Assembly (NCBI RefSeq): GCF_964355755.1
Contig: NC_092673.1
Location: 14,046,948-14,110,947 of the forward strand
Origin: Antedon mediterranea
Taxonomy: Eukaryota > Animalia > Echinodermata
Direction: 5' to 3'
Length of the DNA stretch: 64,000 bases
Each line of letters opens with the position of its first letter. Positions within the stretch are counted from its first letter, which is position 1. Positions 14,401-46,140 of this stretch are shown here, piece after piece. The position numbers and the translations under genes were made by a program. The notes beneath the pieces are model-generated. The model made no database searches. It worked only from the letters and a program-made list of their open reading frames with translations, and was not told the DNA's origin.

Positions 14401-17400
14401 AGGGTGTACAACTTCACAGTAGCTGATTTATCGGGAAACATAGATTTCTGTGAATTTAGGATAACGGTTCCAAGTAAGATACCACAGTATACACGCGAGC
14501 TTGTTCTAAAAGCGCTTAGTTTTCGGTACTGTATCTAAAAGTATTGTTGCGTAGTTTATAAAATTATTTATAGGCCTATCTAAATTAAAATATTATCGTG
14601 TCAATTTTCATTTTATTATTAGTGAAGCTGATGACAGTAAACATAGAACTTTATTACATAAAACAACACATAAGCTTTTTTTTTTTTATTATTAAAGCCT
14701 ACTTTACATTAGAGGAAAAACGCAACATAACAAGCTCCGTATCAACTGAACCAGATAGTATCGTATTTTGGGCATCGACCGAAAACGCTATAAAAGAAGG
14801 TATGCATTTAAAATGAACTGACTAAGCTAACTGAAAGTTTAAACACATTTTGTTTACTATCAATAGGCCTACCATAAACCATAAGGTTTTTTATCAAACT
14901 TCCTTAAAAATACTTTGCTTACCTTGCCATTGACACCCCACACAAAAAAAAAAATAAACAAACCAGCACGCGTACAAAATATGATTGATGACTGTACATT
15001 TTTAGTACGCGCACGTCAATTCAATAGTAACACAATTTAGAGACGCTTAAAGTTTTAAGATAGGATTTATCAAGATTATTGTATTTTTTAGATGGACCAT
15101 TCTTTCTTAATGCAAGTTTAAGTGAACTTTCGGCTAACACATTATTAGAAACTCTGTAAGTAATGATCATGAAGTATATTACAGCTATTCCCATTCTTCA
15201 TCCATGAAAGGTTTTAAATAATAGAACCTTTTAATGAAAAACTTTTTTTTAAATTATTTGGTACAGCCTGAGATTCGAAAATTTACTATAGAAATGTTTC
15301 AATCTAATTTTTTTCAGCGATGGAGAGTTTTTCGAAAGTGCAACAGACGTAGTTACTCTTGACGTTTTTAATAGACAGTTTAAAAAAATAAGTTTAAATT
15401 GTCGGATTCATTTTCCTGTATTAAAGGTAACTTTAAGAAGCGATTACATGCATAGGATTGTTAAACAATGCAATAATGTGACTTATTATTTCGAAATAAT
15501 TGATAGCAACATTAACTGACGAAGAAGTGTATCACAGGAATCACATTATGTTCCAACAAATAATTGTCGGTAATCTTTTTTTAATCCAACAAGTAGGAAA
15601 TTGCGTTGAATGGAAATTTGATGCCAGTTTGTTACTTTACAAATGATAATCACCCTCCGTCGTAAGTATTAATGTTTTAGATTACATACCACGCACGCAT
15701 TGAACGCCCACAACCTAGCTACGACGACCCTGTATGTTCTCCTCCTCCGCCTTGTGTCTAGAGACAACATATCATGTCTGGAGACAAACAACGATGGGGC
15801 TGTTTCATGGCAAGCGACGGTCAGATCCATAACACACATGTCAATGTGGTTGCTGTTTGTTCCTATTGTTTCTGGCTTTCCAAAATCACTTGCTACTGAA
15901 GTACCTTTTTTCTAACTTAAAAAGTAATTTTAATGTTTCATGTTATTAAAGCGAGTGTTTATGGGCAACTGATGGATGTGTAACACTCTACGAAGAAGAC
16001 TATTACGTAACTGTTGTGACGTGTAGATGTAGTCATCTGACGTCATTTGTCCTTCTCATGAAACCAAAACCGGTTAGTTCTTCTTGTTATACTTCCCTAT
16101 CATTATGTTTGTAGCAGTTTATGATAGGTTATATTTAAGTTTTGAATCAAAATGGGTTACTTATAATTGAATATGTTTTGTTGAGTTTAAGGAGAAATCA
16201 ACGGATCATCGACACGATATGTCTACACTCACAAAATGTGGATTGGTAGTCTCCACTATTTTTCTCATCAACACACTTGTCATTATTTGCTGTTTCAGGT
16301 AAGTTACAAATACGAAATCATGTAAATAAGTTCAAAGTTGCTCCTATAATGATCTACTATAATACAAACATATCTCAAAATTGTACAATTTTGACAATAA
16401 AGTAGACTTGTATCTTGTATCTAATGCACTGAACCGATGGAACAAATATTTTCTAATTTCAGAGAATTAAGAAGATCGGATAGATTCAGAATGCTGTGCC
16501 ATTTGGTGATTTCGTTACTCTGTGTTAACACTTTGTTTTTGCTCCTTGAATCAGATGTTAATAAATCACTGGTAAATAATCGAAATAATGTCACTTTTCA
16601 AATAAGTTATTAGCACTGACAAAGGAAAAAAGTTGTTTCCGAACTGAGCACTTTCTCTCTGGCTGTACTTTTGATTTGGCTTTCTGCTTATTTTATTTCT
16701 ATACATTGAGATCCAGCCAAATAGATACCAACAGCATAGTCAGTTTCAGTAATTTTCCGGATTAATTTGTTGATTAATAAATGATGTCTCATTAACTAGG
16801 CACAAACGTATCACGTACTGCAAATGTTTTTTTAAACTTGCTTCTATCATTCCATCGGATAAATTAAAAAAAATGTCCATTAAAATCTACATCCAACCAA
16901 TCGTAATCATCTAGCACGCCTGCTTCGAACGGCAAGATATAGTTCCAAGTAGGCCCCTACATGTGCTTTCTCGTTTGAGAAATATGCTAAAAACGGTTTT
17001 TTTGATATACCTTATTAACTAAGTCTCGAAATTTTAGAAATTATTGTAAAAATATAATAACACTTAAAAAAAAACTTTTTTAAACAATTTATTACAATAA
17101 TGCATATGTATAGAGAGAATACACTAGCCAGGCATCGGCATCTTTACACATTTTTATTCCTAAAATTCTTAAAATCGAGGGCGCCAAACATAAAACTTAC
17201 GAGATCGAAAGGAGTCGGGAAGTTTGTGTGCTCCCTTGCCTCTAGCACGGTAAGACCTTGAGTCACGACATCAGATGCTTTGATGTTATCGCCTCAAAAT
17301 GCCGTGGTGGAAAGGGGGACGTTTAAATCTGTAAACCCCAATTACAGAAGCTCGCTTAGCTTTAACTCTATTCCACCAAGACCGGTTTGAACCCACGATA

Positions 17401-25130: not shown

Positions 25131-25421
25131 ATGAAAGTATGGAACTGCAAAAATGTAAAATGTATTTGGATGTAAAATATTAATAACATCATGAACAATA
25201 CATATTTTGTCCTTTTTGGCGTTTCATGAATTTGGCAATTCCATAAAGCTTAATACTAGTTACTAGGCCTAGTAGGCCTAGCCTAGTAGTAGTAGTAGGC
25301 TAGTAGAACCCCTAGGCCTAGTAGTAGTAGTAATAATAGTAGTAGTAGTAATAGGCCTAGTAGTAGTACTAGGGCCTGAATATAGGCCTAGGAGTAGGCC
25401 CTTGGCCTAGGTAGGCTAGTA

Positions 25422-27563
25422 GGATGCTAGTCAAGTCGCCCCATCGCAAAGTCGCCCCATCGCAAAGTCGCCCCATACAAAGTCGCCCCATACACAGTCG
25501 CCCCAAAACAAAGTCGCCCTGACACAGTCGCCCCATTGCAAAGTCGCCCCATCGCAAAGTCGCCCCAACGCAAAGTCGCCCCATCGCAAAGTCGCCCCAA
25601 CACAAAGTCGCCCCATCGCAAAGTCGCCCCAAAACGTTAAAAAATAGTTTAAAAGTGCGTAAAATGTCGCAATGATGCACAAAATAACACTGAACGTGTA
25701 GGCATAAAAGGGGAAGCCCCGCCATATAGTCTCAGGTCACACGATCGGCACGCTCCCCAATCATCAGAGAGGAAGCCCCCAACTAATCACTCCGCGGTCG
25801 CACTAACGTGCTAGCTCTCACCAGAGGGAAACCCCCGTAATTACTCCGCCGTTGTCGCACTACAACGCACCATCTGAAGATGGGGAAACCCCGTCGGAGT
25901 TTTACGATGATATCAGTCGCGTTCGAAATCGGTGGCCTTTAATTTTGGTCGCGATAAAATGATGTTTTACGATCTAGATTATTTTTACTTTGGTCGATGA
26001 ATATTTATTATTATTAGGCCTAGGCCTATATTAATAATTGATTTTCGTTTTTATTTTACACTGAGGTCTATGATGAGAGAAAGATGTGTGCCTTAAAAAT
26101 GACAATTTGTAAACATAGTTTAAGATTATAGTAAGCCTATTATTCAGCATAATGTCATTTAACAGTACATAAATTTAAATGTAAAATATTTTATAGGGAA
26201 CGTAGGCTACGTCTGTCTTTTATTTTTTATATGCAACAAATTAGGTAAAACAATTTATTTATAAACATTCAGTTTACTATTATACATAGTATTACAATGA
26301 ACATTGATTGTAAGCCTGGAAATGCAATCCCATCATTATATCCATTATAAAATTGCATCATATCGCCACTATATGTCGTAAATGATGACGTGCATGTGTG
26401 TATTCGTCGTACGTCCGTGTACGTATTATTCCGTGCCTCTTCACTGTCTTGTTTATTAAAATTAAATAAACACCCGATATGAGGATATTTATTAGGCATG
26501 ATAATAACCAAAAGGGTTGAAAAGAATTTCTTCAGTAAAATGATCATTCTGCTGTTGAATAAAAAGCGACTCGCAATCTGAAACATTCTCTGAAACCAAT
26601 CGGAGCTGCTCCTTCTGTTTCCTTCTCACAGCTGCTACGTCTTTCTGCTGCCCGTCGGGGATTCCCCTTTTTAAAAAACACGCACACGATAATCATACTG
26701 TACGATGGTTTTTCCATGGTCAAATGTAGCGTTTTAATTTTACTAAAATACCTGCATGTGTAAAACGATCATATCGACGAAGAAATCCCCTTTTTTTATT
26801 TCTTCATTTTGAAAAGTCATAATTAAAATTAAATAACTATAGACACATAACTTGTCAATAAATGCAAAATGATCAATAAGTAGCCTATATAACATTTATT
26901 GTCTTACAACGCTGTTATTGTTTTAACTACTGTAAATATACGAAGGCCTACTATTTATACACTTATTATATTATCCTAAAAAATGAGCTGGTATCCACGC
27001 GTAGGTTGAAGAAAGATTCGTAATTGTGGCTCTGGTAACTAATTTTAAAATCATATTAAATTAACATTTTCGAAACTATAAATCAGGGATAATCTTTTCG
27101 AAATCTTTTTAGAACTTTCAAACAAGGGACTATTTTTTAATGATTTTTAAAAAGCACATCACTCCATTAAAACCTGTAAAATAAAAATTAAAACACAAAT
27201 TATGTATATAATAGGATAAACATTATAATGTATACGACATTTAGCGCGACCAAAGTAGCAACGCAATCGATATCAAACGCAACCGCTATATGATTAAAAC
27301 AGCGTACTACTAGCGGCGGCACTACTTCCGAAATAAAACCGTGGGCGACTTTGCGATGGGGCGACTTTGCGTTGGGGCGACTTTGCGTTGGGGCGACTTT
27401 GCGATGGGGCGACTTTGTAATGGGGCGACTGTGCCGGGGCGACTGTGCCGGGGCGACTTTGCGATGGGGCGACTTTGCGATGGGGCGACTTTGCGATGGG
27501 GCGACTTTGTATTGGGCGACTTTGTATGGGGCGACTTTTCGATGGGGCGACTTGACTGGATCC
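25422..27563. mobile_element. Foldback-type MULE-like element with minisatellite TIRs
   Basis: Inverted arrays of 16-bp AAAGTCGCCCCATCGC (25430-25632 / 27342-27556), ends GGAT..CAGTCAAG, 9-bp flanks AGGCTAGTA/CGGCTAGTA. Confidence 0.8.
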
Positions 27564-28502
27564 CGGCTAGTATACAGTAGGATGGCCTAACTAGGCCTAG
27601 CCTACATAGTAGTAATGTATTATAGGTATAGGCATAGGCCTAATTAGGCTAGCAGGCCCTATAGCCTAGGCCTCTAGGCTAGTCTAGTAGACCCCTCCCT
27701 TATTAGTACTAGGGTCCCGCGGTCATTGATCCCACTAGGCCTTGGGTATAGGCGATAATAGAACTACTGAACTCGTAGCTAGGCTAGGCCTACTCTAGTA
27801 GGCTATGACCTTGCTCGACACCGAACAATCCACGCTACACCGATGACTTGGCCTCGTAGAGAGTATGAGTTTAGGCCCCTTACGCTCATAAATGCCTAGA
27901 AAGAATTCAAGGAAAAAAGAACAATAATTTACCGGTCAACCCTATTTTGGCCCCGATGGCATTCCACACATCTCTTTTCTTTAGTGCATTTTTGTACTCA
28001 GCATCTGACTTATCATAAAGTATATTGTTTTTTTCAACAAGTATGATTAGCGCTTCCTCGGTGGACTCCATCGCGATGATTTTCGCCTGAATTTTTCGAT
28101 CTCTCTTTTTTTGCGCTCTTTTATTTCCTGTAAATGAAGCTCTCTCATTGGCCGAAATATTTCTATCGTTTTGCTCACCATAAAAAAATCGCTCATGGAA
28201 GCGATATCAAAAACGATCATTCTATCGTATATGATAGAATGTTATCGTTATCGTACTAGTACTAGTACTCGTACTACACCTTAGCGATTTTATTCTATCG
28301 GTTATCGTTATTGTCGTAGTATAAACAGCCCTTTATGCCGTTTTTATAGAAATATAACTTAGTCGTTAGTATTTAAAAGAACTTCACAAGTGTACCACAT
28401 ATATATTAGAAGTTTGTTGTGAAAGAATTAGGGAATTATAGGTAGGAGTAGACCGCCGTAACATGAAAACGAAACACAAAATTTGCTAGGCCTAGCTTAT
28501 TG

Positions 28503-31987: not shown

Positions 31988-33649
31988 CAGCCGCGTAACA
32001 AGGGGGTCTTGTCAGGGGGGCAAAGAGGGGCAAATCCTTCCAGACACGAAGTACTTGAGCCACAGCCCCCCCATGGTGGGGGATGTGGCGAAGCGAATTT
32101 TGGTAAATGACACCCCTAGATCGTCGGAAATGGTACTCTCGCACATAAAATTCATGATAAATGGAAATAACACTCCCATTTATTGCACAGCAATCAGCAA
32201 AATGATCGTACATTTTTCACCGTTAAAAACTCAGGTGACATAACATTTGAACATGGGAAAACCCAATCTAACATTGGATCCGCACCTGGCAAAGGTAGTA
32301 ATTTTTCCGGTTAGAAGACTGAAACAGGGCCGTAACCAGGTTTGACGGCGGGGTGGATCGTTAAGTTGTTTAGTGGAACCATACCCTCGAATTTTTTTTT
32401 CTCTATAGGCCTAGGCCTATATGTATGGCCGCAAATCGCATTTCCGGCTAATCTCTTTTGTTTATGAACTATATAATTTGGTGTAATTTCCAGCCCACGA
32501 ATTTCAATTGCCGACCTTATTGCCGACCTTAAATTGTCAGAGGACGGCATTCTCTTGCCGACGACCGAGACTAGGCTAGATCCCTCCGCCCTTTAAGCCT
32601 CCTAGCAACAACATGGTACATTAAGGGATCGTATCATTGAGACTTTAACAGGCATATTCACCATCATGTGGTGTTTAGGTAACAAACCATGGAATTAAGA
32701 TGATCCCTGAATTCACTCAACCATTGCATCTTGCGCTTGCGTTAGCTGCATGCTTTCTCTCTATACTATATAAAGCAGCTGGCTGGGCGCGTCACATGCA
32801 CACAGAGACCTGTATAGGGGAATACCCTTTTATGTCAAGCAAACAACTATGCTCTGTGTACGGCTAGATCCAGAACCATGATGTTCAGCAGTTATCAAAT
32901 AGAATTTATCTTGTAAATTTAGTGTTAGGTTTTTATATTTTAGTTAAAATATACTTTATATTCTTATGTCGATTTATATTAATTTAATTTATTAAGGCTT
33001 GACTAGACCTGTAGTAAACAATCGTAGTGCTGTGTTAGTATGCCCAGAAAAAAAAAAGTGGGAGGCCAAGCGGAACTCGCTGTTCAGCGGGGGGGGGGGG
33101 GGGGGGTTTGGTACTCTCCCCCGATCTCCCCCTGGTTACGGGCCTGTGAAAGATTGAGTATTGGAGTGACAGCCAGCCACGAAGTACGTTCGTTTTGCTG
33201 ATCGCTAGCGCGTTACATACAATTAGTAGGAATGTATTTTTTTAAGGTGGCCTCACACGCACAGCACAGCGTCACAATTGTGTATGAGATGCCCGCGATG
33301 GCGGCTTAGATAAAAGACGCCAAAAACCACAGTCAACTGACCGCATGTTAATGTACTGATAAGCAGTGCGTCTTCCCACAAGTTGTCAGTCAGGATTTTG
33401 TGTATTTCATATCATCTTACTTGAATATCATACTGTACTGTGACTCATTTGACTCATTTGAAGCCATATCATATATCGTATATTTTATTCTTATCTTATA
33501 TTTTCTTTCTTTTTCTTTCTTCTATCCCTTCTTTGTATTTTATTTTATTTTTTTGACTTGTTACCCAGCCCGATCGAACGCTTCTCAACCCGGTAAAATC
33601 CGCCAGGGGGGTATTCCGCCCACCTGCCCCCCCGCTTGTTACGCCACTG
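31988..33649. mobile_element. hAT MITE (8-bp TSD) with nested TIR element 32325-33146 (5-bp TSD)
   Basis: Outer CAG..GCGTAACAAG / CTTGTTACGCCACTG, TSD AATCATAT; inner CAGGGCCGTAACCAGG / CCTGGTTACGGGCCTG, TSD TGAAA. Confidence 0.8.
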
Positions 33650-34181
33650 AATCATATAAACACAAATTGATAGTAATCTACCAATAAAAAAAGAAACACA
33701 CATACATCATGTTGGTACACAAATTACCTATTTGCTCCCTCATTAAAATAATCACCCATATACAAATATTTAAATTCATCATTCAAATTGAAACCTTTTT
33801 ATTTACATCTACAGACGTTATTTAATTTATCTATGTATTTAATCTGTTATTTATTACCAATATTTTATTTTATTTTTATTTTATTTATTTTATTTTATTC
33901 AAACTCATTCAACAGCGGGAAACCCGCCCCTTACAGAATGGAATAAACTATACCATCTAAAAATATATAAAAATCTTAAAATCTAGCAATACAAATTTAT
34001 ACAATTTTACTAATTTTATTACAAAAACAATTATAACGGTCAAAAAAGAGATCAATAGAATTATCTTTAACAACACAATTATTAAAAAGAAGACAAATAC
34101 GTGAAAGAAGACAAATACGCCGTAACGAAATTTGAGAACACGACATATATTTACATCTATCTCATCTAATTACAACAAAAA

Positions 34182-34320
34182 GAGCGTTCTAGTTGCACGT
34201 TGGTAAGCTTGGCGCTGAAGCCGGTCAACATCTTCGCGATGAACTAATTCCATTGTGATGTGAACATTCTGACTCTCTTCATGCAGCAGCCCGATTAAGA
34301 GGTAGAGTTGAAGTTTTCCT
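34182..34320 (-). mobile_element. MULE transposase C-terminal exon fragment
   Basis: KLQLYLLIGLLHEESQNVHITMELV..RLQRQAYQ, resembling invertebrate MULE C-termini. Confidence 0.5.
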
Positions 34321-34873
34321 GCAATAAAAAAAATAACGATATACTATAACAGGAGGGGAACCAACAAGATGGCAGCCGTAAATGTGTAAACATTATTTAA
34401 TATAAAAAATAATCTAATATAATGAATTAAGACCACATACATTACAACACATGTCAAAGCACAGTGAAGTTTTTATAAAATTAAATATAATTATTGCTAA
34501 CCGCAATAGAATAAATAATTTCTTGGTAAGGCTAAAAAAAAAAAGTTTGTTAGCCCTACGCGCCCGCCCCTAAATCGGCAAAATCTAGGGGCGGAGTTTT
34601 TAAAAAAGTTTTTTTTTTAAATTTTTTTTAAATGAATTTTGATATAGGCTTAGTTTTAGAGCTAAAGCTAAAGAGGTCCCATTTTTGGACCATGAATTTG
34701 ACATTTGTTGCATATGTGGTACACATGAAACGGTGTTCTACAACACCCTACGCTTGTTACTTTACATTTAGCGGTGAACTTTTGTTTTTAACTCTATTTT
34801 TTGATGTCTGGAATAAAATTGTGTGTCATCATCAAACACAGTTGATGAGGAATCGGTTCTTTGCCGTAATTCT

Positions 34874-37800
34874 TTAATTTCTGATGTTGTTTGTGCGCGT
34901 CTTTAGTCGTTTTGACGGTTGAGCACATGAAATTTCAATTTCATCTTCAGACATAAACACATCGTTGTCTTCGAAAACCGTCGTCTTCTTCGGACTTTCA
35001 GTTGTTTTAGTCAATGAAGTATTGGGAGTCAGTACACCATCTGTTTCATCTTTTCTTTCTAATTGAAACAATTGAGCCTCATTGTCAACTAGAAATTGTG
35101 AATCTAAGGTTTCTTCATCCCCATCTGGTATACCATCATCCATTTCTATTTCCTGAAAGATAAATAAAATATATAGTTTTTAAAATATTTGTATTTAAGT
35201 AAGGCGCCTTCGGTAAATTATTTCAAACGACAAGAACGCGTTCAGGCACGTTTGCTATTGTATTACGACAAAGGTCATAAAGACGCGTTTGGCAGACCAT
35301 TTGGGGGAACCCCGTTTGGACGCGTTTATTCACGTTTGGCATGTTGCTCCGCCCCATTGAACGCTTGACTGAGCAGCATTATTGTGTGTTAGTTGGTACG
35401 ATTCCTTCATTGAGTATTAAATTTCCAGATAATGGCATATTGTTCTTTACACGCCCGCCGTTTGTCAAGACGTACTTTACATAAAAATTACTTTTTAAAG
35501 CTTGGTACTAGGGCCTAGTCTCTAGGGGAGGCCTAGGCCTACTAATTATTTCAAAAACACATTTATTTTTCAAAATTGTAAAAGTTTTGAAACTTGAAGA
35601 CCAATCAAATAAAATAAATATACCTGTTTCCCGAGTTTCAATTCACAAATCACATTTTGTATTGATTGTACCATGGAGTTATACTCTCCTTGCCTAATTA
35701 CGGAAAAATATACAACAATGCGTACAATATCGCTACCAAAACGCGATTCCTTGTCTGTGGGGATTCCCTTGATGATACGGCCCCGCACAGCCCGTAAACA
35801 ACATTGCACTGTAATAAATAATGCGACCTACACTATAAATGATTTAATCCTACCTTGGGTTAGCGAATTATAAAAAACAACATCTAGGCTAGGACACCAA
35901 CAAAATATATGCAAGATAAATATATATTCCATGTTAAGATTTAAGATATGCCTTTTAAATTATTAAAGAAAATACCCGACTCGAATTTGGATGGAGGGAA
36001 AAAACCATGTGAATCGCGGGAACAGTTTAGATTACGTTTCATGTCATGTGACACAAAATTCAGGTACACGTAATTAGCCACCCCTGGTACCGAGTTAAAA
36101 AAACATGTGAGAGGTTGCGGTAAACAGAGAGTATCGTGTTTCATGCCATGTGACAAAAAAAAAACTAGGTCTGTATTAATTACGGTCTTCATACTTTTGT
36201 TCTAATTTTGAGGGCTGGAAATAACGTTCAAACACCGTACTGTTAAAATAGATTTCTTTCAGATTTTTAAACTTTTATCTGAAATATAAATTGATATATC
36301 TAGTATTTAGTAACGGTAAATAGCGGATATTAATACTGTCATAATAATATGAAGATACGATTTAGTGATGCTTATAAACGATTGATTCGTGTAAACGTGA
36401 TTTGGCGCCAAGTAGCTAGCGAGATAGAAGGTAATGCAAAGCGACGATTTGCTGTCACTCGCTCGCGATCAACTAGGCCTAGCCTAAATTGCAGTTATTT
36501 TTACAATTTTTTCATGTTTTTGTGAACTGCCGATCGGTTATATAATCATTGCGCTACAAATACAGCACTGTACATTTTATTTCACTTTAAAATCTACGAA
36601 AACCGTTTTTTTTTGCTTCACCATTAATATTATTAGACGTTGTTTTGGCGGGCCTAGTAATTATTATACCGTGATGTTTGCCGCGAAAGGGGGTTCCCCG
36701 ATTAGTTTGCAAGAGTCCGAGATAATAGAAAACGCGACTCTGTGACACAAACGTGTTCGAACGTCGATGTTTTGTTTGAACTGGCAAGACAAAGGGAAGC
36801 CGTTTGCGTGACACAAACGCACTACAACGCTCCGGCTCCGTTTGGAAAGGCGTGTCGGGAACGTGGTAATTCTCATGAATATTCAATTAGATGCACTAAT
36901 TAGAACGGTTGATTGTGAAACACGTTTCAACAACGGTCAAAATCGAAACGCGTTCTTGTCGTTTGAAATAATTTACCGAAGGCGCCTAATATGTATCAAC
37001 AACTGCAAAAACAAGCATTTATTTACCAATGAGTCACTTGAGTCGATCTGTAGGCTCGGTTGAGACCGTTGCTCCATTGATGCATTCATCGAGGAGATGC
37101 TCGTTCCTGTAGAATCAAATGGAACAAATAAATATGCAGGTATGGTATTTTCTACAACTCGTCCATGTTGTTCAATCCAAGCTTCATTATCTTCCTCTTC
37201 TTTCTGTATACTCATTCAACTTAATCTCCAAATATCGGTTAGCTGCTTTTTTTAAGTTTGGTACAAGGAAGTCGACACTTTCTACAACTTCACGAAGATA
37301 TTCCATTTCATTAATTGTTGGTTCATACATGTTGTTGATCATGGTCATAAAGAAATGTTCTGCAAGGAACATGTGCGTTTCAGGTAAAGTTATGACTGGT
37401 TCAGGGTCGTTCAGCGGTTCAATGGAAACGTCTAGATAGACCGGCGTACTTTGAATCTTTTTCACAATGTTTCAACTCATTTGGTATGTCTTCATTAGTT
37501 GTTAAAATGACCCATTTCGATTCAATATTTGCGATAGTTCCATGAGTTTTCACTGTGACATGGTCACCGGAAGCTAATCGCCATAACGTTGACCTATTTG
37601 TAGCATTACTGATGGATTTTAAAGTACAGTCATCGGCAACAAAAACTGTTTGGTCTGACGACCTAGAGTAATTAATGTCTAACTCCTGACGAATCAGTAG
37701 CTAACATGTGTGATTTGTAAGTTGGAATGATTCGAGTTAGTATTGACTTTCCGGTGCCTGTGTTGGTTCCATAAAAACATATACCCTTCATCCCATCATT

Positions 37801-38738
37801 ACAATTCCGGTGGCAGTAAGACATAATCAACATTACACAAACCAATTTGTTTGATTCTTCTATTTTTCCTTTGAAGTTGTTATTATCTGTTCATATTTCT
37901 CGGAATTAGTAAACAATATACGTTTTGGTATTTTCATCATTGGCTTTACCATTACAGATGACTCAATTAACACTTTAATTGCTGGTTTAAGCGTTGCTAG
38001 GTCCTTCATGCTTACATTAAACTTCTTGCGTATCATAACAAGAAACGATTTTTCAGTGATTGGCATGTTGGCCTACTTCATTTTGCAGTTCACCTAGTGT
38101 ATCGTCAGTAGATATAAGTTGTAGCGTTTTTATGTGTTTCACATATGACCCGTCTGTTGTTGAATGACCACAATCAACGTTTGCATTAACTTTATCACCT
38201 TTGTCAGGTTGATCCATAGGACCAACATCATTACCATTAGGTATGTGCGGGTTGTACGGTTGCATTTGGAGGCATAGGTATTCCCCCTTGTGGTGGATCT
38301 TCAATCGAATGTGCTTCATTATTCCAGTTTTTGTATGGTAGGCTTCTAAATCTTTAACTGGTTCTAAATAAGGAATGGAACAGTCAATGCAATGACTACC
38401 CAATGTAACAAGTATACCACATAAATATGTACGTGTTGACATTTTACGAATATGCATATGTTGGTATGGCAAGTGTGCTTGCTGTCGTTTGGCTGCTCGT
38501 AAATATCCATGGATATGTTCAAATTCCGGTATTGGTTCAGAATAATCTGGGCATTCTACATGACCGAAATTTGCTATTATTCTGGTCGCTTGTGGATCGT
38601 TGCCAGATTCTCGGAAAGATATTTGTTGTTTCCTATTAAACAAGCAATGTCGTATCCTTCTATTGTGCATGTTAGTAAAGAAAATGCCCATGTTACGGCT
38701 CTCTGTTGTCTCCATATACCGGGTATTACTACGTCCAT
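34874..38738 (-). pseudogene. Decayed spliced Rep gene: HUH endonuclease + SF3 helicase (CRESS-DNA/parvovirus-like); exons 38738-37027 and 35152-34874
   Basis: RAVTWAFSL (motif I-like), EHIHGYL (HUH, 38517-38509), EAYHTK (motif III-like); Walker A YGTNTGTGKS (37770-37744), Walker B VFVADD, LASGDHVTVK, motif C VILTTN, Arg finger LSRRF; several frameshifts; in-frame phase-0 intron. Confidence 0.78.
35203..36986. mobile_element. Non-autonomous PIF/Harbinger element inside the Rep intron
   Basis: ~40-bp TIR GGCGCCTTCGGTAAATTATTTCAAACGACAAGAACGCGTT, TAA TSD on both sides. Confidence 0.85.
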
Positions 38739-38929
38739 CTAATAAAATGAAATAAAAATATTAATGACAATAATAATAATAATAATATATAATTATATCA
38801 CTCTATACTTACTCGTCTATGAAGTTTAATAATTGTGGAAGTGGCCAATTTTTCCATGATCTGAAACTTTTTTGACGTCTTAGTTTTGGCGGAGAATTAC
38901 GTAAACATGGACGTTGTTTATCAAAGAAA

Positions 38930-39400
38930 ATCATTATGACACAAGATCTCAAGATCAACTAATGCTACCTAAACCTAGAACAGACTATAGAGGTGCTAAA
39001 TTATGGAATGAACTAAGTGATGACATAAAAAATGTAAAAACATCTTTTAATTTTAAATTAAAATTAAAAAATGTATGATTACCACCATTACATTTAAGTA
39101 TACTATAATTCAAATTATATGATGTTAGAAATGTATTTAAGATTTTCAATTCAATTGTGGTGTGTGTTACGATGTTTTCGCGAGTGAATAAGAAGCATAT
39201 AAAACACAAACGAAAACTATTTATTCTTAATTATCTTACAAGCGTAATATTAACATCAAAATGAGTCTTTGTGATATATTAATATTTTATTGACCAGTAC
39301 TTGTTGGAGTTGTATTATTTTGTACAATGTAGGCATTAAATTGACAACTTCTGTGAGTGATTGATGATAGGCCACTGACCTTGCTAGGCCTTGACAGCTG
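38930..39400 (+). mobile_element. L2/CR1 LINE 3' fragment
   Basis: HYDTRS..LPKPRTDY..RGAKLWNEL..FKLKLK. Confidence 0.65.
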
Positions 39401-39409
39401 ACGGCTTTT

Positions 39410-39525
39410 GAACAAATTTTTTCGGCCTGACTTTTTTCAAAAATCGCATGGTCGGAGTATGAGTCGACCCCCCGATTTTACAATTAAAATTAAAAGTCTC
39501 GACCTATACTCCGGAAAATACGGTA
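39410..39525. mobile_element. Tc1/mariner(pogo)-type TIR end
   Basis: TCGACCTATACTCCGGAAAATACGGTA terminus. Confidence 0.55.
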
Positions 39526-40480
39526 GCTCACTGGGGATGTCCTATAATTTTTCTGAGTTCAATTATAACACCACTACCTGGTCCCAACTTCCTCATTATC
39601 TTTCTGACACTAATTGTATCTGATACAAAATAAAAATACATTTCTGGCAACATAGTAAAGAACCGCCTTATTATTATTAGTTACTTGGCATTTAGAGCTT
39701 CCAACTCTTTCTGCAAATCTTTCTTTTCATTTTAAACTTTCTTTATCATGAAGGTTGGTATATGTTTGACAAACATGGCTAGGCTAATCATATCCCGATG
39801 AAGATATTGCCATTGAAATTATTTTTTCAAGAATTTCATTTGGGACATTGTTATTATCAACTGTAGATTGACGATCAGTTTCATTTAGTTGTAAGGGAAA
39901 GATATTATCTTCACCTGAATCTTCGAGTGAGCTTCAATATATCGGAGGTGAGGCATCAATCTGAAAGTTACTGGATTGTGAATCGGATACATCCTTTTGC
40001 GATTGTTCACTAATGGGTTCACTAACACAAATATAGTGTTCACCGTGTTCCTCTCCGTAGTGTCCAAGATGGATTGTGCCTAACGGAAACTATGTAATGG
40101 GTTAATTACAGTTCTTGCATCAGAACCCAGAGAAGACAAAACTACTACTGTATTTGTATACTATATATATTCGACAGTGTTTGTAGTGTGATGTGGTCCC
40201 CAAAAGTTCCTGCGTTTGCCATTTGGTCCGTATAATTGAACTACGGCATCCCGACAAACAGTTGGAGAGGCATGCCGTCTATATTATCGGGGTTATCCCG
40301 AAGGTGACCAACTACTTCAGCACGTAGCTGTAGGCCGTCCGGAAAATTCCTAAATCTTGTAGCGCAAACCTTACCGAATCAAACTGGCAATTCCCATTAC
40401 CAGGTGGGTTACTGTATACCTTAAGGATATACCCTCTTCAGAGAAATCCCTCTCAATAAATTTATCATGACCTCTTAATT
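39526..40480 (-). mobile_element. Ginger transposon, C-terminal part (OTU-like protease, F-box-like motif)
   Basis: NPPGNGNCQF (OTU Cys box), LRAEVVGHL, GTFGDHITL, LGHYGEEHGEHY (His box), VPNEILEKII; stops and frameshifts. Confidence 0.72.
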
Positions 40481-40714
40481 TTACTGATTACTTAAAGTGA
40501 TATACAGTAACTTTCTTTGCATACACTGTGTCACACAATATATATATATATGATACAGGAAATTAAACCTTTAAATAAATCTAAAAAGTTGAATACTAAA
40601 ACTATAAAACATTTTTAAACTCTTAAACTGTGGTACACTGTACTGTAATTTCTTGAGACCTAAATTGTCAATGTCCTAAATTCATTTATTGGGACTGGGA
40701 AACCATACAGCCAT

Positions 40715-40865
40715 ACCATCACCAGTTGCAAGGTACCGCAAAATGACTAAAACCAACTCCTCCACTGAGATAGCAATTCCAATTCTGTTTTTGCTCTCTT
40801 TCAGATGGGGCTGAATTAAGGACACAAGTTGATTCAATCTTTCTGGTGTCATTCTTGTATATCTA
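40715..40865 (-). mobile_element. PIF/Harbinger transposase N-terminal fragment (probable host TIR ends at 45221)
   Basis: RMTPERLNQLVSLIQPHL..AISVEELVLVILRYLATGD; GGAAACCAGGCT-TTA end at 45210-45224. Confidence 0.72.
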
Positions 40866-41161
40866 TTTAATAAGACAAAACAATTTGTAAATGCAACACA
40901 TACACTTTCAATGTTGATACATTATTAATGTTAATATCAATGTTTTGTTTAATTTTTAGTGGTACTAGAAGCAGACTTTCTGTTCACATGTAAAAATGTT
41001 AATAATAAATAAGTGTGATATTTCCTATGTACTGGGCCCGGCAGTATTTACTGTTAATACTGTACAAGCCTTTATTTCTTTGGAATCATTATAGGCCTCA
41101 TTTTCTTGTTTAAAATTTGCTCTGTAAAAATATTTAACATTTTAAAATTAGTGTGTTGAAG

Positions 41162-41198
41162 CATAGAGATATTATAGTGAACTAGTAATATCTCTATG
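41162..41198. mobile_element. 37-bp CATAG palindrome with 7-bp TSD (P-like footprint)
   Basis: GTTGAAG-CATAGAGATATTA..TAATATCTCTATG-GTTGAAG. Confidence 0.72.
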
Positions 41199-41866
41199 GT
41201 TGAAGCTTTTCAATAATTATTTTAAATCAAAGAAAAATAATTAACTTGTTTTTTTAAGTAAATGACTACAAATTTTAATTTTATAGCATTTTCCTGTTAA
41301 GCAGCTGAACTACTACTAGTACTGTCATTAGTTATAGTTATGTGTACAGTATAGATAACATTTTAAAATGTTTTTTTAAAAAATGTGGTTATTATTTATT
41401 TGACTGTACGTCCAGTGTGGATAAGCAAAGCAACAGTCAATAGCACAAACAACATTACCACACTAACTACAATACCCTATTATACAATACATAGGCCTAG
41501 GCTATTCCTATAGCCTATCAAGGATCATATAAAATAAAGTCACACTAAAAAAAAAGAGATTTAATTCCAAAGTTAGCCTAGGCCTACAGATGGTGGTCCA
41601 CTTAATTGGGATAGAGCCTAGCCTAGTAGGCTAGTATAGGAGACCTACTACTACTAAGTACTAGAGGCCTAGGCTAAATAGTAGGTAGGCCTAAAAAAGG
41701 CTTTTGGCAGTAGGCCTAGTAGTTCTACTAAGTAGGGGCCTAGGCCTACAAGAAGGCTACAGTCTAGGCCTATGCCATTTTTATTACAGGCCTATAACAG
41801 AATCTTGCCTATTTAATAGGTAGACTAGGCTATGCCTATGTAAAGTATATGACACACAGCATGTAT

Positions 41867-44800
41867 GGGTGTGTAGAAAGTGACGACCTCGAATTGGACG
41901 ACACCAACGACCCGGGCGACCTCGAATTGGACGACCTAGAATTGGACGACCCATAACACGAAACCGACGACCCATATAGCCTAGCCTAGCCTGAGTGTGG
42001 TATAACATCCCGAAGTTGAACATAGCCAAAGATCTTTAAACCATACCTTATATAATACTCGCAAGCAAGCAATTGATTGAAAAAATACAGAAATATCGCC
42101 ATTTGATACTGAATGTGTCGACATGAACAAACGAACAGATATGGAACGCCAAGAGTGCATCATTAAAACTGCATTCGACTCGATTAGCACACGAAATATC
42201 ATAAACATGGAAAACCAGGTCAAAACGGCCCCTTTTTAAGCGGCGGGTAAGGTTTGACCGTATACAATGCATGTGTGAAATGTAAAGCTTTCTTATGGCC
42301 CTCCCCATGCACATGTTCGCAACACGCTGCTTGGTAGGCCTATAGTGTTCGTTGTAAGAAGACGAGATGTAATTATACGTCCATGGTTTTAACCAATTTA
42401 TTTCTTTTTAATTTATTTTTAATATGTTTGTCGAAATACCATCTTTGTTTACAGGCATGTCTGCCACAAGCATCTGCTTTTTGACCATGCCTTCTTCAAT
42501 TTAATTAATCTTGTTTATCTCTATTTGTAAACTGCTTTTATTTGGAAAAAATAAATTGATTTTGTGATAGGTTATAGAACATGATAAACATAACGTATTA
42601 TGAACAATGCCCAATAGATTTATGAAACGGACGGATACTTTTTTCGTAAAATAGTGACATTAAAAACATGAGTGACTGACATTTTAATAACTCAATCTAC
42701 GGGAAACTTTGCTACAACTAGCGTTTATTACTTGAATCACCATAACAGACTTTTGTTGATTCTGCATAGTTTATACAGGTTGTTTTTTTTAATGTTCAGA
42801 GATTTATGTTACCCAAAATCTTGAAAATCGGTCGGCGGTTTTCTTTTTTTTTTTGCTTTTGAGGGACTTTTTAACTTTATAATTTTATTACATTCTTTGT
42901 TTTTTGAGCCTTTTTTGTTTTAAAAAGAGATTACTAAACTGTAATTTTATCAATTTTGGCTACGGAAAAACACATTTTAAAAATTGTGCCCTCTATTTAA
43001 CATTAAAGTCAATGAATTTTATCTCTAATGCATTCTCCCTAGTCACACGTGGACACTATTTTACCAAGTCTCCGGATCCGCTGCACTAGATTCGCCAACT
43101 GTTGACGTATAAAGCAAACCGTGTGTAGATTGTTCAGACACTATTGTATAAATAGTGTCCTCGTAGTCTTTAGTGACTTCAAAAAACCGATCCAAATTTA
43201 AAAAACAAATATTCTACTTGAGCAACATGACAATTTGTTTTAGGCCTAAAATGACGAATACTCATTAAATCACAAAAACATAATTGCTGACATTTTATGA
43301 AAACAAATATAACAAAATAACTTATTAATAACATCATTAACAACTGACATAAGTATTTCTCTTAGTCTTATCTACTGCATCCATCTGACCATCCATCTTT
43401 TATACACAGACCTATTTATACAATACAACATATTCCAACAACATTCCTATATACTACAAAATCCTGATCAATTGCGGGCAGAATAAAGAACAGAAAAGAT
43501 AATAACCAATATTCATCTGACCCTGGACGTCTAATTATACGTCCATAATCTGACCATTTATCTTTCATACAACATATATTTTCCTATATACTGCAAAATA
43601 CTGATCAATTACGGGCAGAATAAAGAATGATAATAACCAATAAAATAAAAACTAAACAATACTGGAAATAACAAAGAATATTATTTGAAATTAACTTCTA
43701 CTCTACGCAATTCTGGAATAACCATACTTTTTCTTCGTAGTTGCCTTTAAATCGTTGCATCACGCTAATTAACATATTAATAATTATAATTTAATTAATT
43801 TCGTATCAAAGATCAAAAGTAACACTTCCTCATGTATTTATCCCATGAATGAAATGTATTCAGTAAACATTATATTTCATTCTGGTTTACTCATGTTCCG
43901 TGAGTAGATCAGTGTTGGTTGAAACCGGTTATGATGAGTTTTAATAAATAAGAAATTAGTAAGAATGTTAATGCAGCATAGACAATGTGACATTAACCAG
44001 TTTAAGTATGTTATGGGTTCTGTGAGACTTCGTCTTACCACATAATGTGTATAACATCATGTTACTTCCCACTACATATGTCCGGCTCACAAATTGAGAC
44101 TGCAGACCGACACATATTTTCAATTACAGTAAATATAATGCACATGCTTAACAATTCTATACACATTACAATTCTCTACGACGAATTGTTGCATAGATAG
44201 GAGAACCCTATCTTAAAACCTAATTTGTATTTTTGGGGGTATGGCGGCCCTCATTTTTATCTTCTGTAAATTGGTCCACTCACCAAGTGCGAACATTTAA
44301 AAAGAAAAAAGATCGTTTTAGGTTAATTTAAATATGGTAATTATAATCGGGTCAAAGATCAAAAGTGATACTTCCGGTCATTTTGCGAGAAAAAATCTAT
44401 TAGAGAAAATGACGTATTCTGAACAAATCCTCTCTAGCTAGTTACATAGATCTTGCAACATAAAATGTAGTCATTTTGTTGGCCGCCATCTTGGGGCAAA
44501 CATACAGATAGCCTTGATTTGATTTGATTATTTGGGTTAACGATGACCAATCCACTGAGCAAACCTTACCCGCCGCTTAAAAAGAGGCCGTTTTGACCTG
44601 GTTTGCCATGTTTATGATATTTCGTGTGCTAATCGAGTCGAATGCAGTTTTAATGATGCACTCTTGGCGTTCCATATCTGTTCGTTTGTTCGTGTCGACA
44701 CATTCAGTATTATATAAGGTATGGTTTAAAGATCTTTGGCTATGTTCGGCTTCGGGATGTTATACCATGCACTTAGGCGTAGGCTAGGCGCCTATATGGG

Positions 44801-44903
44801 TCATCGGTTTCGTGTTATGGGTCGTCCAATTCTAGGTTGTCCAATTCGAGGTCGCCTGGGTCGTTGGGGTGTTCAATTCGAGGTCGTCGCTTTCTACACA
44901 CCC
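41867..44903. mobile_element. Non-autonomous MULE with ~370-bp TIRs
   Basis: GGGTGTGTAGAAAG.. / ..CTTTCTACACACCC, inverted similarity 41867-42255 vs 44562-44903, 10-bp TSD CAGCATGTAT. Confidence 0.88.
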
Positions 44904-45221: not shown

Positions 45222-46140
45222 TTAATGGAATGTACAGTTTTTCCCTCAATTTCTTTCGTTTGCTTAATTTCTTTGTTTCTTCTCGTTCCTTTGTGGCAAT
45301 GTTTTCTTCGGGAATCCACTCTTCAACATTTTTATTTGTTACTGGATGTATAAATTGTACTTGTATTTGTATTTTCCGTTTTTAAATTCTGCCTTTCAGA
45401 ATAAATTTCTTCTTTGATTTTAGTTTTCCTTTCTTACTGAAATTTTCAAATGTTATTATAACTTCATTTACGTCATACGTAGATATTGTATTTTGTTTGC
45501 TATACGTGTTATTCATGCGTTTGTTCATTTGTATGGTTGCTTGTTTTGCTTTTTTTCGAATTTTGTCAACATGCTTTGCATTGCACCTGATGTCTTTTGG
45601 TCTAGGTGATTTAGTTAAAAGAATCTCATCTTCGGTCTCAATTATCGATGCTTTGCTTAAAATCATTTGATTTTTGTCCGTAGTAGATTTCGAAGGGTGT
45701 TTTCCAACCCAACTCTTTTTTACACTCCTCGTTTAAACTTCTGTTATAATCTGGTAAGTGAGCGACCCAGTTTATACGCTGCTTTTCCAACACCATGAGA
45801 TCATACAACATTTTCTTACAAAGTCGTCGGTGGACTCTTTCAACCTTCTCTTGTGACTGAGGGTGGTGTGGCCGAGATTTTATTCTTTTAATTTTTATCT
45901 GTTTGCAAACTCTCTTTACCTTCCCATCAAATTCTCTTCCATTATCACTCTGTAAGCGGTGAGGTGGACCATGTTCCTTGTAGATTTTGGTGAGTAAGTT
46001 TGCTATTGGAGCGCTGGATTTTTGTTCCAATGGCCGCAACCAAACAAAACGACTGAAAACATCAATTATGCTTAAAATGTATCTGTATAGTTTTCCCTTG
46101 TACATTACTGCGTCAGTGTCATATACCCATTAAATCAATC
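45222..46140 (-). mobile_element. Ginger transposon integrase (rve, KRBA2/SCAND3-like)
   Basis: YRYILSIIDVFSRF, LQSDNGREF, SRPHHPQSQEKVER; splice acceptor before IDL at 46140; no RT or LTR. Confidence 0.82.

What the first reader, a model, noticed from the sequence alone, without database searches (positions are those of the whole stretch)
34670..38740. Intron-containing HUH endonuclease + SF3 helicase Rep gene (ssDNA-virus type) among transposon relics
Seen: joining short minus-strand ORFs across frameshifts gives ~570 aa with rolling-circle motifs (RAVTWAFSL, EHIHGYL, EAYHTK). These are followed by all SF3 motifs in order (GTNTGTGKS, VFVADD, LASGDxVxVK, ILTTN, LSRRF). A GT-AG intron (37026-35153, ~87 nt once the Harbinger insert is removed) splices in frame to an acidic exon with an NLS-like PSKRLK. 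A further frame (34785-34670) reads CKVTSVGCCRTPFHVYHICNKCQIH, and a probable 5' intron lies at 38812-38739. Known: HUH+SF3 is the architecture of CRESS-DNA Rep and parvoviral NS1, whereas Helitrons use an SF1 helicase and Replitrons lack one. Inference: the linker is long, there is an acidic/Zn-finger-like tail, and no capsid gene is visible. This fits either an endogenised divergent ssDNA virus or an undescribed capsid-less rolling-circle element.
Basis: partly seen in the sequence, partly recalled or inferred. Interest (0 to 1): 0.85.

Follow-up and report, generated by a model that had tools for sequence, protein, structure and literature searches.

The report
Fossil of unnamed parvovirus-like replicon
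A broken gene in this animal genome encodes a nicking-enzyme-plus-helicase replication protein of the kind small DNA viruses use, its only relatives found are dozens of copies on long unnamed contigs, and it is likely the dead remnant of an unnamed virus-derived mobile element.

Summary
The minus strand carries a HUH + SF3 Rep gene broken by six frameshifts (562 codons, 38738-37027). The 3' intron (37026-35153) is 87 nt once a 1784-nt TIR element with a TTA duplication is discounted, and it joins in phase to an acidic exon. The SF3 call is solid. A helicase piece found six true relatives, which expand to 34 proteins on 16 long ENA contigs (8 whole). Their profile matches the window collinearly (E 8e-32), and a model of one relative matches parvovirus NS1, CRESS Rep and papillomavirus E1 at 9-16% identity. 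The HUH call is weaker: motifs I and II fit, but the window's Tyr aligns with the first Tyr of the family's YxxYxxK. Homology does not need the 5' intron, and the relatives lack the Cys-rich tail. A double hairpin 74-138 nt after the last frame marks a sharp insertion boundary, leaving no room for a downstream capsid gene. Best reading: a dead copy of a genome-resident, ssDNA-virus-derived rolling-circle element of an unnamed lineage (0.47), close to an endogenised parvo-like virus (0.38). The class has precedent (Liu 2011); the lineage looks new.

The parts
38813..38857 (-). Possible 15-codon first exon
   Evidence: Ends at GA|GTAAGT, phase 0; not required by homology
38739..38812 (-). Possible intron 1, 74 nt
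   Evidence: GT-AG, GC 0.12, 11 of 14 pyrimidines before the acceptor; splicing not observed
38580..38738 (-). Rep piece with motif I (WAFSL, 38690)
   Evidence: relatives have WAxT at the same distance from the start Met
38056..38613 (-). Rep piece with HUH motif II (38517), IPYL, motif III-like YHTK (38340) and a linker about 55 aa longer than in relatives
37863..38072 (-). Rep piece, predicted helical bundle before the helicase
   Evidence: Inside the collinear match to profile positions 144-365; helices at residues 147-193 of the relative's model; no match on its own
37675..37890 (-). SF3 piece with Walker A (G-x5-GKS)
   Evidence: E 1.9e-10 to the family profile
37422..37700 (-). SF3 piece with Walker B, B', motif C and arginine finger
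   Evidence: Six relatives at E 7e-4 to 7.5e-7 among 1.84 billion proteins; E 1.7e-16 to the profile
37027..37471 (-). Two post-helicase pieces up to the splice donor
   Evidence: no significant match to the family
35153..37026 (-). Intron 2 (87 nt without the insert)
35203..36986 (.). 1784-nt TIR element with TTA duplication (PIF/Harbinger-type by ends and duplication; label from recall), high-copy, inside intron 2
34877..35152 (-). Acidic last exon (26% D+E) with basic patch PSKRLK
   Evidence: whole relatives also end in an acidic tail (19-21% D+E) with basic patches, unspliced
34668..34787 (-). Cys/His-rich frame, possible zinc finger
   Evidence: link to the Rep is inferred only
34530..34594 (-). 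Two adjacent hairpins, likely the element's 3' terminus
   Evidence: -16 kcal/mol, z -3.4; low depth like the Rep; the neighbouring high-copy repeat stops at 34529
34250..34529 (.). High-copy host repeat that is interrupted at the boundary (left limit approximate)
   Evidence: Depth 25-100 times the Rep; in all four runs other copies continue with different letters behind 34529 or end there

Best explanation
This is a broken, low-copy HUH-nuclease/SF3-helicase gene that ends beside a double hairpin at a sharp insertion boundary, and it is likely the dead remnant of a genome-resident, probably capsid-less mobile element descended from a parvovirus/CRESS-like ssDNA virus. Inferred working cycle of an intact element: the host transcribes and splices the Rep mRNA; a basic patch takes the protein to the nucleus; the HUH domain nicks one strand at an element end and stays bound through the motif III tyrosine; the SF3 ring, assembled through the helical bundle, unwinds the strand while host polymerase copies it; the terminal hairpins act as stop signal or primer; the released strand or concatemer re-enters the genome, often in clusters or tandem. 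Shown: the domain content, the breaks, the boundary and the multi-copy relatives. Inferred: every step of the cycle, the absence of a capsid gene in the whole element, and splicing.
For: Relatives were found only as ENA proteins on long contigs (0.13-4.1 Mb): 34 proteins on 16 contig lengths, up to 5 per contig, 8 of 34 whole with all motifs, core identity 56-100% among the 21 compared, one cluster of 6 members at >=90% identity on 5 contig lengths. P0018 runs from one Rep into the start of a second, as expected from head-to-tail copies. P0014 is fused to a Pao retrotransposon domain (E 1e-28), which points to an animal chromosome (BEL/Pao being animal elements is recalled). In the window the last frame ends 74 nt from the hairpins and 138 nt from the boundary, leaving no room for the downstream capsid gene of monopartite parvoviruses. 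The hairpins are at Rep-like depth and start where the host repeat is cut. Both predicted introns are short and very AT-rich. Precedent for virus-derived repeats in animals: PMC3198968 (passages).
Against: The copy appears single in its own genome (flat depth about 10 in X1, against 80-2000 in flanking repeats; contig depth is only a rough guide), so no amplification is shown in this host. The DNA around the relatives could not be read, so they may have capsid genes beside them. The 5' side is overwritten by other insertions and could have held a capsid gene. No second end or target-site duplication was established. The fold hits are all viral replication proteins. The relatives are intronless and lack the Cys-rich tail, and they are only 32-40% identical to the window in the SF3 core, so their behaviour need not apply. 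Motif III is doubtful in this copy.
Confidence: 0.47

Rival explanations
1. Endogenous viral element: the NS/Rep gene of an unsampled, highly divergent parvovirus-like (possibly bipartite) or CRESS-like virus that was integrated passively; the capsid gene lay upstream or on another segment, and the hairpins are a viral telomere.
For: Top Foldseek hits of the relative's model are NS1 of denso-like, chaphama- and penstylhamaparvoviruses (E 1.5e-8 to 1e-6) and AAV Rep68. Size and layout (nuclease, linker, helical bundle, SF3, acidic tail) are NS1-like. NS genes are spliced and a bipartite parvovirus exists (PMC13426907, PMC11357303, passages). NS1-derived elements occur in sea stars (PMC7737747, passages). 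High-copy rearranged integrations of a RepE1 cressvirus are reported in anemone data (PMC11071296, passages). The copy appears single here.
Against: No Parvo_NS1 or Viral_Rep Pfam hit, 9-16% structural identity, and a G-x5-GK Walker A. Several diverged subfamilies with whole ORFs on long contigs suggest amplification inside a genome. No capsid-size frame lies in 33000-42200, although decay could hide one.
Confidence: 0.38
2. The Rep relic is cargo of a cut-and-paste TIR transposon (Zator- or Harbinger-like); the structure at 34530 is that transposon's terminal repeat after a TAA target, not a Rep substrate.
For: The boundary reads TAA then GGC; Zator elements have TAA/TTA duplications and 33-bp TIRs (PMC12905397, passages; TIR sequence not seen). 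A Rep inside a TIR transposon is known in Tuber (PMC3198968). A Harbinger-like transposase relic lies upstream at 40685-40921 (label from recall).
Against: No second copy of this end was found in the window, and it is not at high depth in the reads, unlike the ends of the neighbouring MITEs. It folds into two local hairpins.
Confidence: 0.1
3. A once-domesticated host gene (virus-derived, intron-gaining, single copy) that has since been pseudogenised.
For: Apparently single copy, present in two individuals and apparently on both alleles of one; host-like introns, one of which tolerated a 1.8-kb insertion.
Against: Six frame breaks; it sits at a fresh-looking insertion boundary in a repeat; no cellular orthologue was found.
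Confidence: 0.05

Closest known systems
Parvoviridae NS1/Rep (AAV2 Rep68/78, B19 NS1, hamaparvovirus and denso-like NS1) and their endogenous elements
   Same: HUH + helical bundle + SF3 + acidic tail, about 650-700 aa; best structural matches (Foldseek E 1.5e-8; VIA Z 7.4, rmsd 4.4, 158 aligned to AAV Rep68, tied with E1); splicing of NS genes; hairpin near the end.
   Different: No Parvo_NS1 profile hit; 9-16% identity; YxxK-type motif III; G-x5-GK Walker A; no capsid gene between NS and hairpin; only one end seen.
[quoted passage not shown]
   Same: Motif I, HUH and YxxK in the whole relatives, fused SF3; ESM Atlas neighbours of P0011 are Rep_OBD/RNA_helicase, Gemini_AL1 and Viral_Rep clusters at 0.95-0.96.
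   Different: About twice the usual length (usual length recalled), with a C-terminal helical domain and tail; no Viral_Rep, Gemini_AL1 or Rep_OBD hit by HMMER; no circular genome or capsid seen; no match in plasmids.
ssDNA-virus-like repeats of animals and fungi: DENSOV_HM (Hydra), PIVE (planarian), the acorn-worm parvovirus-like repeat, the Tuber Rep transposon (PMC3198968, passages and outline)
   Same: Integrated, multi-copy NS1/Rep-like genes in invertebrate genomes; hairpin or TIR ends; many degraded copies.
   Different: Those carry recognised Parvo_NS1, PPV_E1_C or Gemini domains; the acorn-worm element has a capsid ORF and the Tuber element a transposase.
Replitrons (PMC10288648, passages) and Helitrons
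   Same: Eukaryotic HUH transposons; Replitron-1 has introns and a CRESS-related Y1 nuclease; a 3' hairpin is Helitron-like (recalled).
   Different: Replitrons lack a helicase and are reported from plants, algae and protists; Helitrons have two catalytic Tyr and an SF1 helicase. This family has SF3.
RepE1 cressviruses and papillomavirus E1 (PMC11071296, passages)
   Same: Structural tie of the helicase with E1 (VIA Z 7.2, rmsd 10.3, 215 aligned); integrations in marine invertebrates.
   Different: No PPV_E1 hit; five of six family peptides were absent from that paper's supplements, the sixth and a generic one hit unrelated proteins in the passages shown (the protein file was cut when stored).

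Membership tests
SF3 helicase | Walker A, B, B', C and arginine finger in order within about 120 aa | tested here: met
   the relative's model aligns to AAV Rep, E1 and B19 NS1 helicases
Rep-class HUH endonuclease | [quoted passage not shown] | tested here: met
   Motifs conserved in relatives; model places motif I and HVH on strands and the Tyr on a helix; Atlas neighbours are Reps. No isolated HUH domain was among the top 50 VIA rows.
Rep-class HUH endonuclease | Catalytic YxxK in the window copy itself | tested here: inconclusive
   YHTK is present, but its Tyr aligns with the first Tyr of the family's YxxYxxK
Parvoviridae | NS1 with HUH and SF3 domains | tested here: met
Parvoviridae | SF3 domain groups with the family in a tree or profile | tested here: inconclusive
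   No Parvo_NS1 hit; no reference sequences were held for a tree
Parvoviridae | Capsid (VP) gene between NS and the right-hand hairpin | tested here: not met
   74-138 nt only; a separate segment is not excluded
Parvoviridae | Hairpin telomeres at both ends | tested here: inconclusive
   One double hairpin; the other end was not found
Cressdnaviricota | Circular genome with capsid gene and stem-loop nonanucleotide origin | not testable with these tools
   Only an integrated, truncated copy; DNA of the relatives was not available
Helitron | Y2 HUH fused to an SF1 (Pif1-like) helicase | tested here: not met
   The helicase is SF3
Replitron | HUH transposase without a helicase | tested here: not met
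   SF3 is fused
ssDNA-virus-like transposon (Liu 2011 sense) | Multiple dispersed genomic copies with defined ends | tested here: inconclusive
   Multi-copy for the ENA relatives; apparently single in this host; one boundary only
DENSOV_HM / PIVE | Sequence kinship to these Repbase elements | not testable with these tools
   Sequences not held

The most novel reading that the evidence does not exclude
An undescribed superfamily of autonomous, capsid-less animal transposons whose transposase is a HUH nuclease fused to an SF3 helicase: a third eukaryotic HUH group beside Helitrons and Replitrons, recently amplified in at least one animal genome and left as an intron-bearing fossil in a feather star.
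Probability: 0.3. Interest if true: 0.85.

Novelty: new variant of a known kind. Interest (0 to 1): 0.52.

Why it matters
The family escapes Pfam's Rep and NS1 models and sits structurally between parvovirus NS1, CRESS Rep and papillomavirus E1, so it marks an unsampled branch of the ssDNA-virus replication proteins. If the intact relatives prove capsid-less with their own ends, they would be a clear case of a virus turning into a rolling-circle transposon while keeping its SF3 motor, a step proposed for the origin of eukaryotic HUH transposons. If they carry capsids, the locus is a fossil of a new invertebrate virus lineage. The window copy itself is dead; its value is as a pointer to the family.

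Tried and rejected
No whole genome is held, so no genome-wide copy search was possible. Pfam on 11 single pieces, PHROGs on 5, PDB sequences, ESM Atlas on the HUH piece and two word-based protein searches gave nothing relevant. Phage and plasmid tblastn: no match. Pattern scans of IMG/VR, JGI metagenomes (53, 79) and GTDB (81) returned no locus; these rest on a few short patterns and are weak evidence of absence, and one search reported 4 candidate stretches but 0 loci. Four of the 10 phmmer hits (P0002, P0008, P0009, P0010) were dropped as repeat-driven. A single-sequence fold of P0011 was unusable (pLDDT 37). VIA wide search gave no Z of 8 or more, its top row was an unrelated helical protein, and it listed no isolated HUH domain. 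No RNA holder listed; run X5 is only guessed to be RNA, and no joint across either intron was among those shown. Second end: the 23-nt continuation of the interrupted host repeat is absent from the window; a 12-nt part of it occurs once at 41519 (0.02 expected), but I picked it by eye afterwards, so it is only a hint that the insert might span 34530-41518. Zator TIR sequence was not found in PMC12905397 supplements. PMC116598 is not held. The unrooted SF3 tree only shows the window on a long branch. Literature searches that found no description of this family. Earlier-findings searches by sequence and words found no matching family. Subscription papers, Repbase and bioRxiv supplements were not searchable and may already hold it.
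Full report
Setting. The window is AT-rich animal DNA full of transposon relics, with a HYR exon at 14191. Earlier AI notes call the genome a feather star (not checked by me). No whole genome is held.

Observation. Between 38738 and 37027 the gene lies on seven pieces separated by six frame breaks, 562 codons in all. The 3' intron is well supported by sequence. Donor at 37026, acceptor at 35153 with 12 of 14 pyrimidines, phase 0. A 1784-nt element with a 41-nt perfect inverted repeat and TTA on both sides sits inside. The remaining 87 nt have GC 0.18 and two in-frame stops. The 5' intron has a GTAAGT donor (0.2 per kb in the window) and GC 0.12. But the ATG right after it gives motif I at residue 17, as in relatives (18-19), so it is possible rather than required. 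No RNA evidence bears on either intron.

The breaks are real. Short-read contigs of X1 match 36963-38948 without a difference or gap, and contigs of X2 and X4 with 1 and 3 other letters have no gaps over the helicase half. A second individual (X5) holds 36960-38967 on one contig with 14 other letters and 49 gap letters whose places were not shown, and X2 and X4 have 24 and 13 gap letters in the 5' half, so alleles differ there. Depth over the coding pieces is flat and the lowest in the region (about 10 in X1, against 80-2000 in flanking repeats), which suggests one copy at 80% likeness or more; contig depth is only a rough guide.

Helicase. Single pieces hit no relevant Pfam family (0 of 11). 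With X at the break the helicase scores PF19263 E 0.001 and PF00910 E 0.0023, under the cut-offs. HMMER over 1.84 billion proteins with the unbroken Walker B-C piece gave 10 hits; 4 were repeat artefacts and 6 were true relatives. A profile of four of them gave 19 hits among 7992 candidates, and cluster look-ups brought the set to 34 proteins, all from ENA, unnamed, on 16 contig lengths of 0.13-4.1 Mb, up to 5 per contig. Eight of 34 have all motifs and 600 aa or more. A profile of 19 relatives, without the window, hits the two window helicase pieces at E 2e-16 and 2e-10 among 2051 pieces, and the X read-through over profile positions 144-365 at E 8e-32. Core identity is 32-40% window-to-family and 56-100% within the 21 relatives compared.

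Nuclease. The relatives have WAxT, HVH and YxxYxxK. The window piece aligns at the xWGH-like strand, HIH and IPYL, but weakly: the N-terminal half was matched or beaten by 0, 2 and 9 of 300 shuffles for three relatives and by 92 and 106 for two others. The window's Tyr falls on the first Tyr of the family motif, so YHTK may not be the catalytic YxxK defined in PMC6668415 (passages). The linker after it is about 55 aa longer than in relatives.

Fold. A model of relative P0011 from 29 sequences (pLDDT 67, pTM 0.48) has a strand/helix N-domain with the motifs on the expected elements, a helical bundle and an SF3 core. Foldseek returns NS1 of denso-like and hamaparvoviruses first (E 1.5e-8), mixed with CRESS Reps and E1, at 9-15% identity, and AAV Rep68 in the PDB (E 2.5e-5). 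VIA gives Z 7.4 (rmsd 4.4, 158 aligned) to AAV Rep68, tied with E1 and B19 NS1; all are under 8 and concern the helicase half. Atlas neighbours are pCRESS and CRESS Reps at 0.95-0.96. None of 29 relatives hits a Rep or NS1 Pfam family. The family is thus of the ssDNA-virus Rep/NS1 type but belongs to no profile-recognised group.

Ends. Downstream, two adjacent hairpins occupy 34530-34594 (-16 kcal/mol, z -3.4; 1 of 6 GC-rich 9-bp stems in the window). They are at Rep-like depth, while the repeat next to them is 25-100 times deeper and stops at 34529, where other copies go on with different letters (34593-34636 is masked, so no contig bridges hairpin and Rep). So an insert begins at 34530, and the Cys-rich frame ends 138 nt inside it. 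No capsid gene fits there, and no long frame lies in 33000-42200 outside the Rep. Upstream, a LINE end, a TIR fragment, an OTU/F-box-like relic and a Harbinger-like relic overwrite the 5' side. A 12-nt match at 41519 to the repeat's continuation is only a hint.

Mechanism. By established knowledge of Rep/NS1 proteins, an intact version would nick an end with the HUH domain, unwind with the SF3 ring and rely on host polymerase, with hairpins as terminator or primer. The multi-copy, clustered, partly tandem and often intact relatives on long contigs, one fused to a Pao domain, and the missing downstream capsid here tip me to a genome-resident mobile element (0.47). An endogenised divergent or bipartite parvo-like virus is close behind (0.38), because the copy appears single here, the 5' side is lost, NS splicing and bipartite genomes are known (PMC13426907, PMC11357303, passages), NS1-derived elements occur in sea stars (PMC7737747, passages), and the DNA around the relatives could not be read. 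Cargo of a TIR transposon (0.10) and a lost domesticated gene (0.05) are minor.

Comparison and novelty. It works like parvovirus NS1 or CRESS Rep but fails or leaves open the membership tests; it is not a Helitron or a Replitron (PMC10288648, passages). Liu et al. 2011 (PMC3198968, outline and passages; reached through earlier finding e1-7140875) already describe parvovirus-like repeats in acorn worm, Hydra and planarian, and a Rep-bearing TIR element in truffle, so the class is known; kinship with those could not be tested. PMC11071296 (part 1 of 8, passages, supplement search on a cut file) reports integrated RepE1 cressviruses in anemones. PMC13055364, PMC7386202 and PMC12905397 were seen as passages only. 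Eight searches found no description of this family. Verdict: real feature, dead copy, new variant of a known kind, interest 0.52; 0.85 if the relatives prove to be capsid-less transposons (probability about 0.3).

Noticed in passing
window 39530-40440 (-): Degraded gene with an OTU-protease-like motif (GNGNCQFDSV, then a C-terminal His motif) followed by an F-box-like stretch; labels from recall, Pfam gave no hit on two pieces. Depth is about 3-7 times the Rep. Same strand as the Rep; whether it belongs to the element is open.
   Followed up: partly
window 39156-39525: High-copy TIR-type fragment (about 50-100 times Rep depth) truncated at 39156.
   Followed up: partly
window 38915-39155 (+): 3' end of a CR1/L2-like LINE ORF2 (label from recall) lying about 60 nt upstream of the possible first Rep exon; it overwrites the 5' side of the element.
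   Followed up: partly
window 40685-40921 (-): Harbinger-like transposase N-terminal relic (label from recall; no Pfam hit).
   Followed up: no
window 41500-41530: An 8-bp hairpin directly beside a 12-nt match to the continuation of the repeat interrupted at 34529; possible but unproven far end of the insert.
   Followed up: partly
window 45385-46129 (-): Integrase core (rve, E 1.8e-11), Ginger/Gypsy-like relic.
   Followed up: no
window 41867-44903 and 25411-27575: Two elements with long inverted arms, one built of 15-16-nt tandem units.
   Followed up: no
window 14191-14535 (+): HYR-domain exon (E 3e-5), a host gene piece consistent with an invertebrate; earlier AI notes call this genome a feather star (unchecked).
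   Followed up: no
P0018, P0021, P0014, P0017: Rearranged relatives: Rep fused to the start of another Rep, an internal duplication, a Pao fusion, and a foreign N-terminus.
   Followed up: partly
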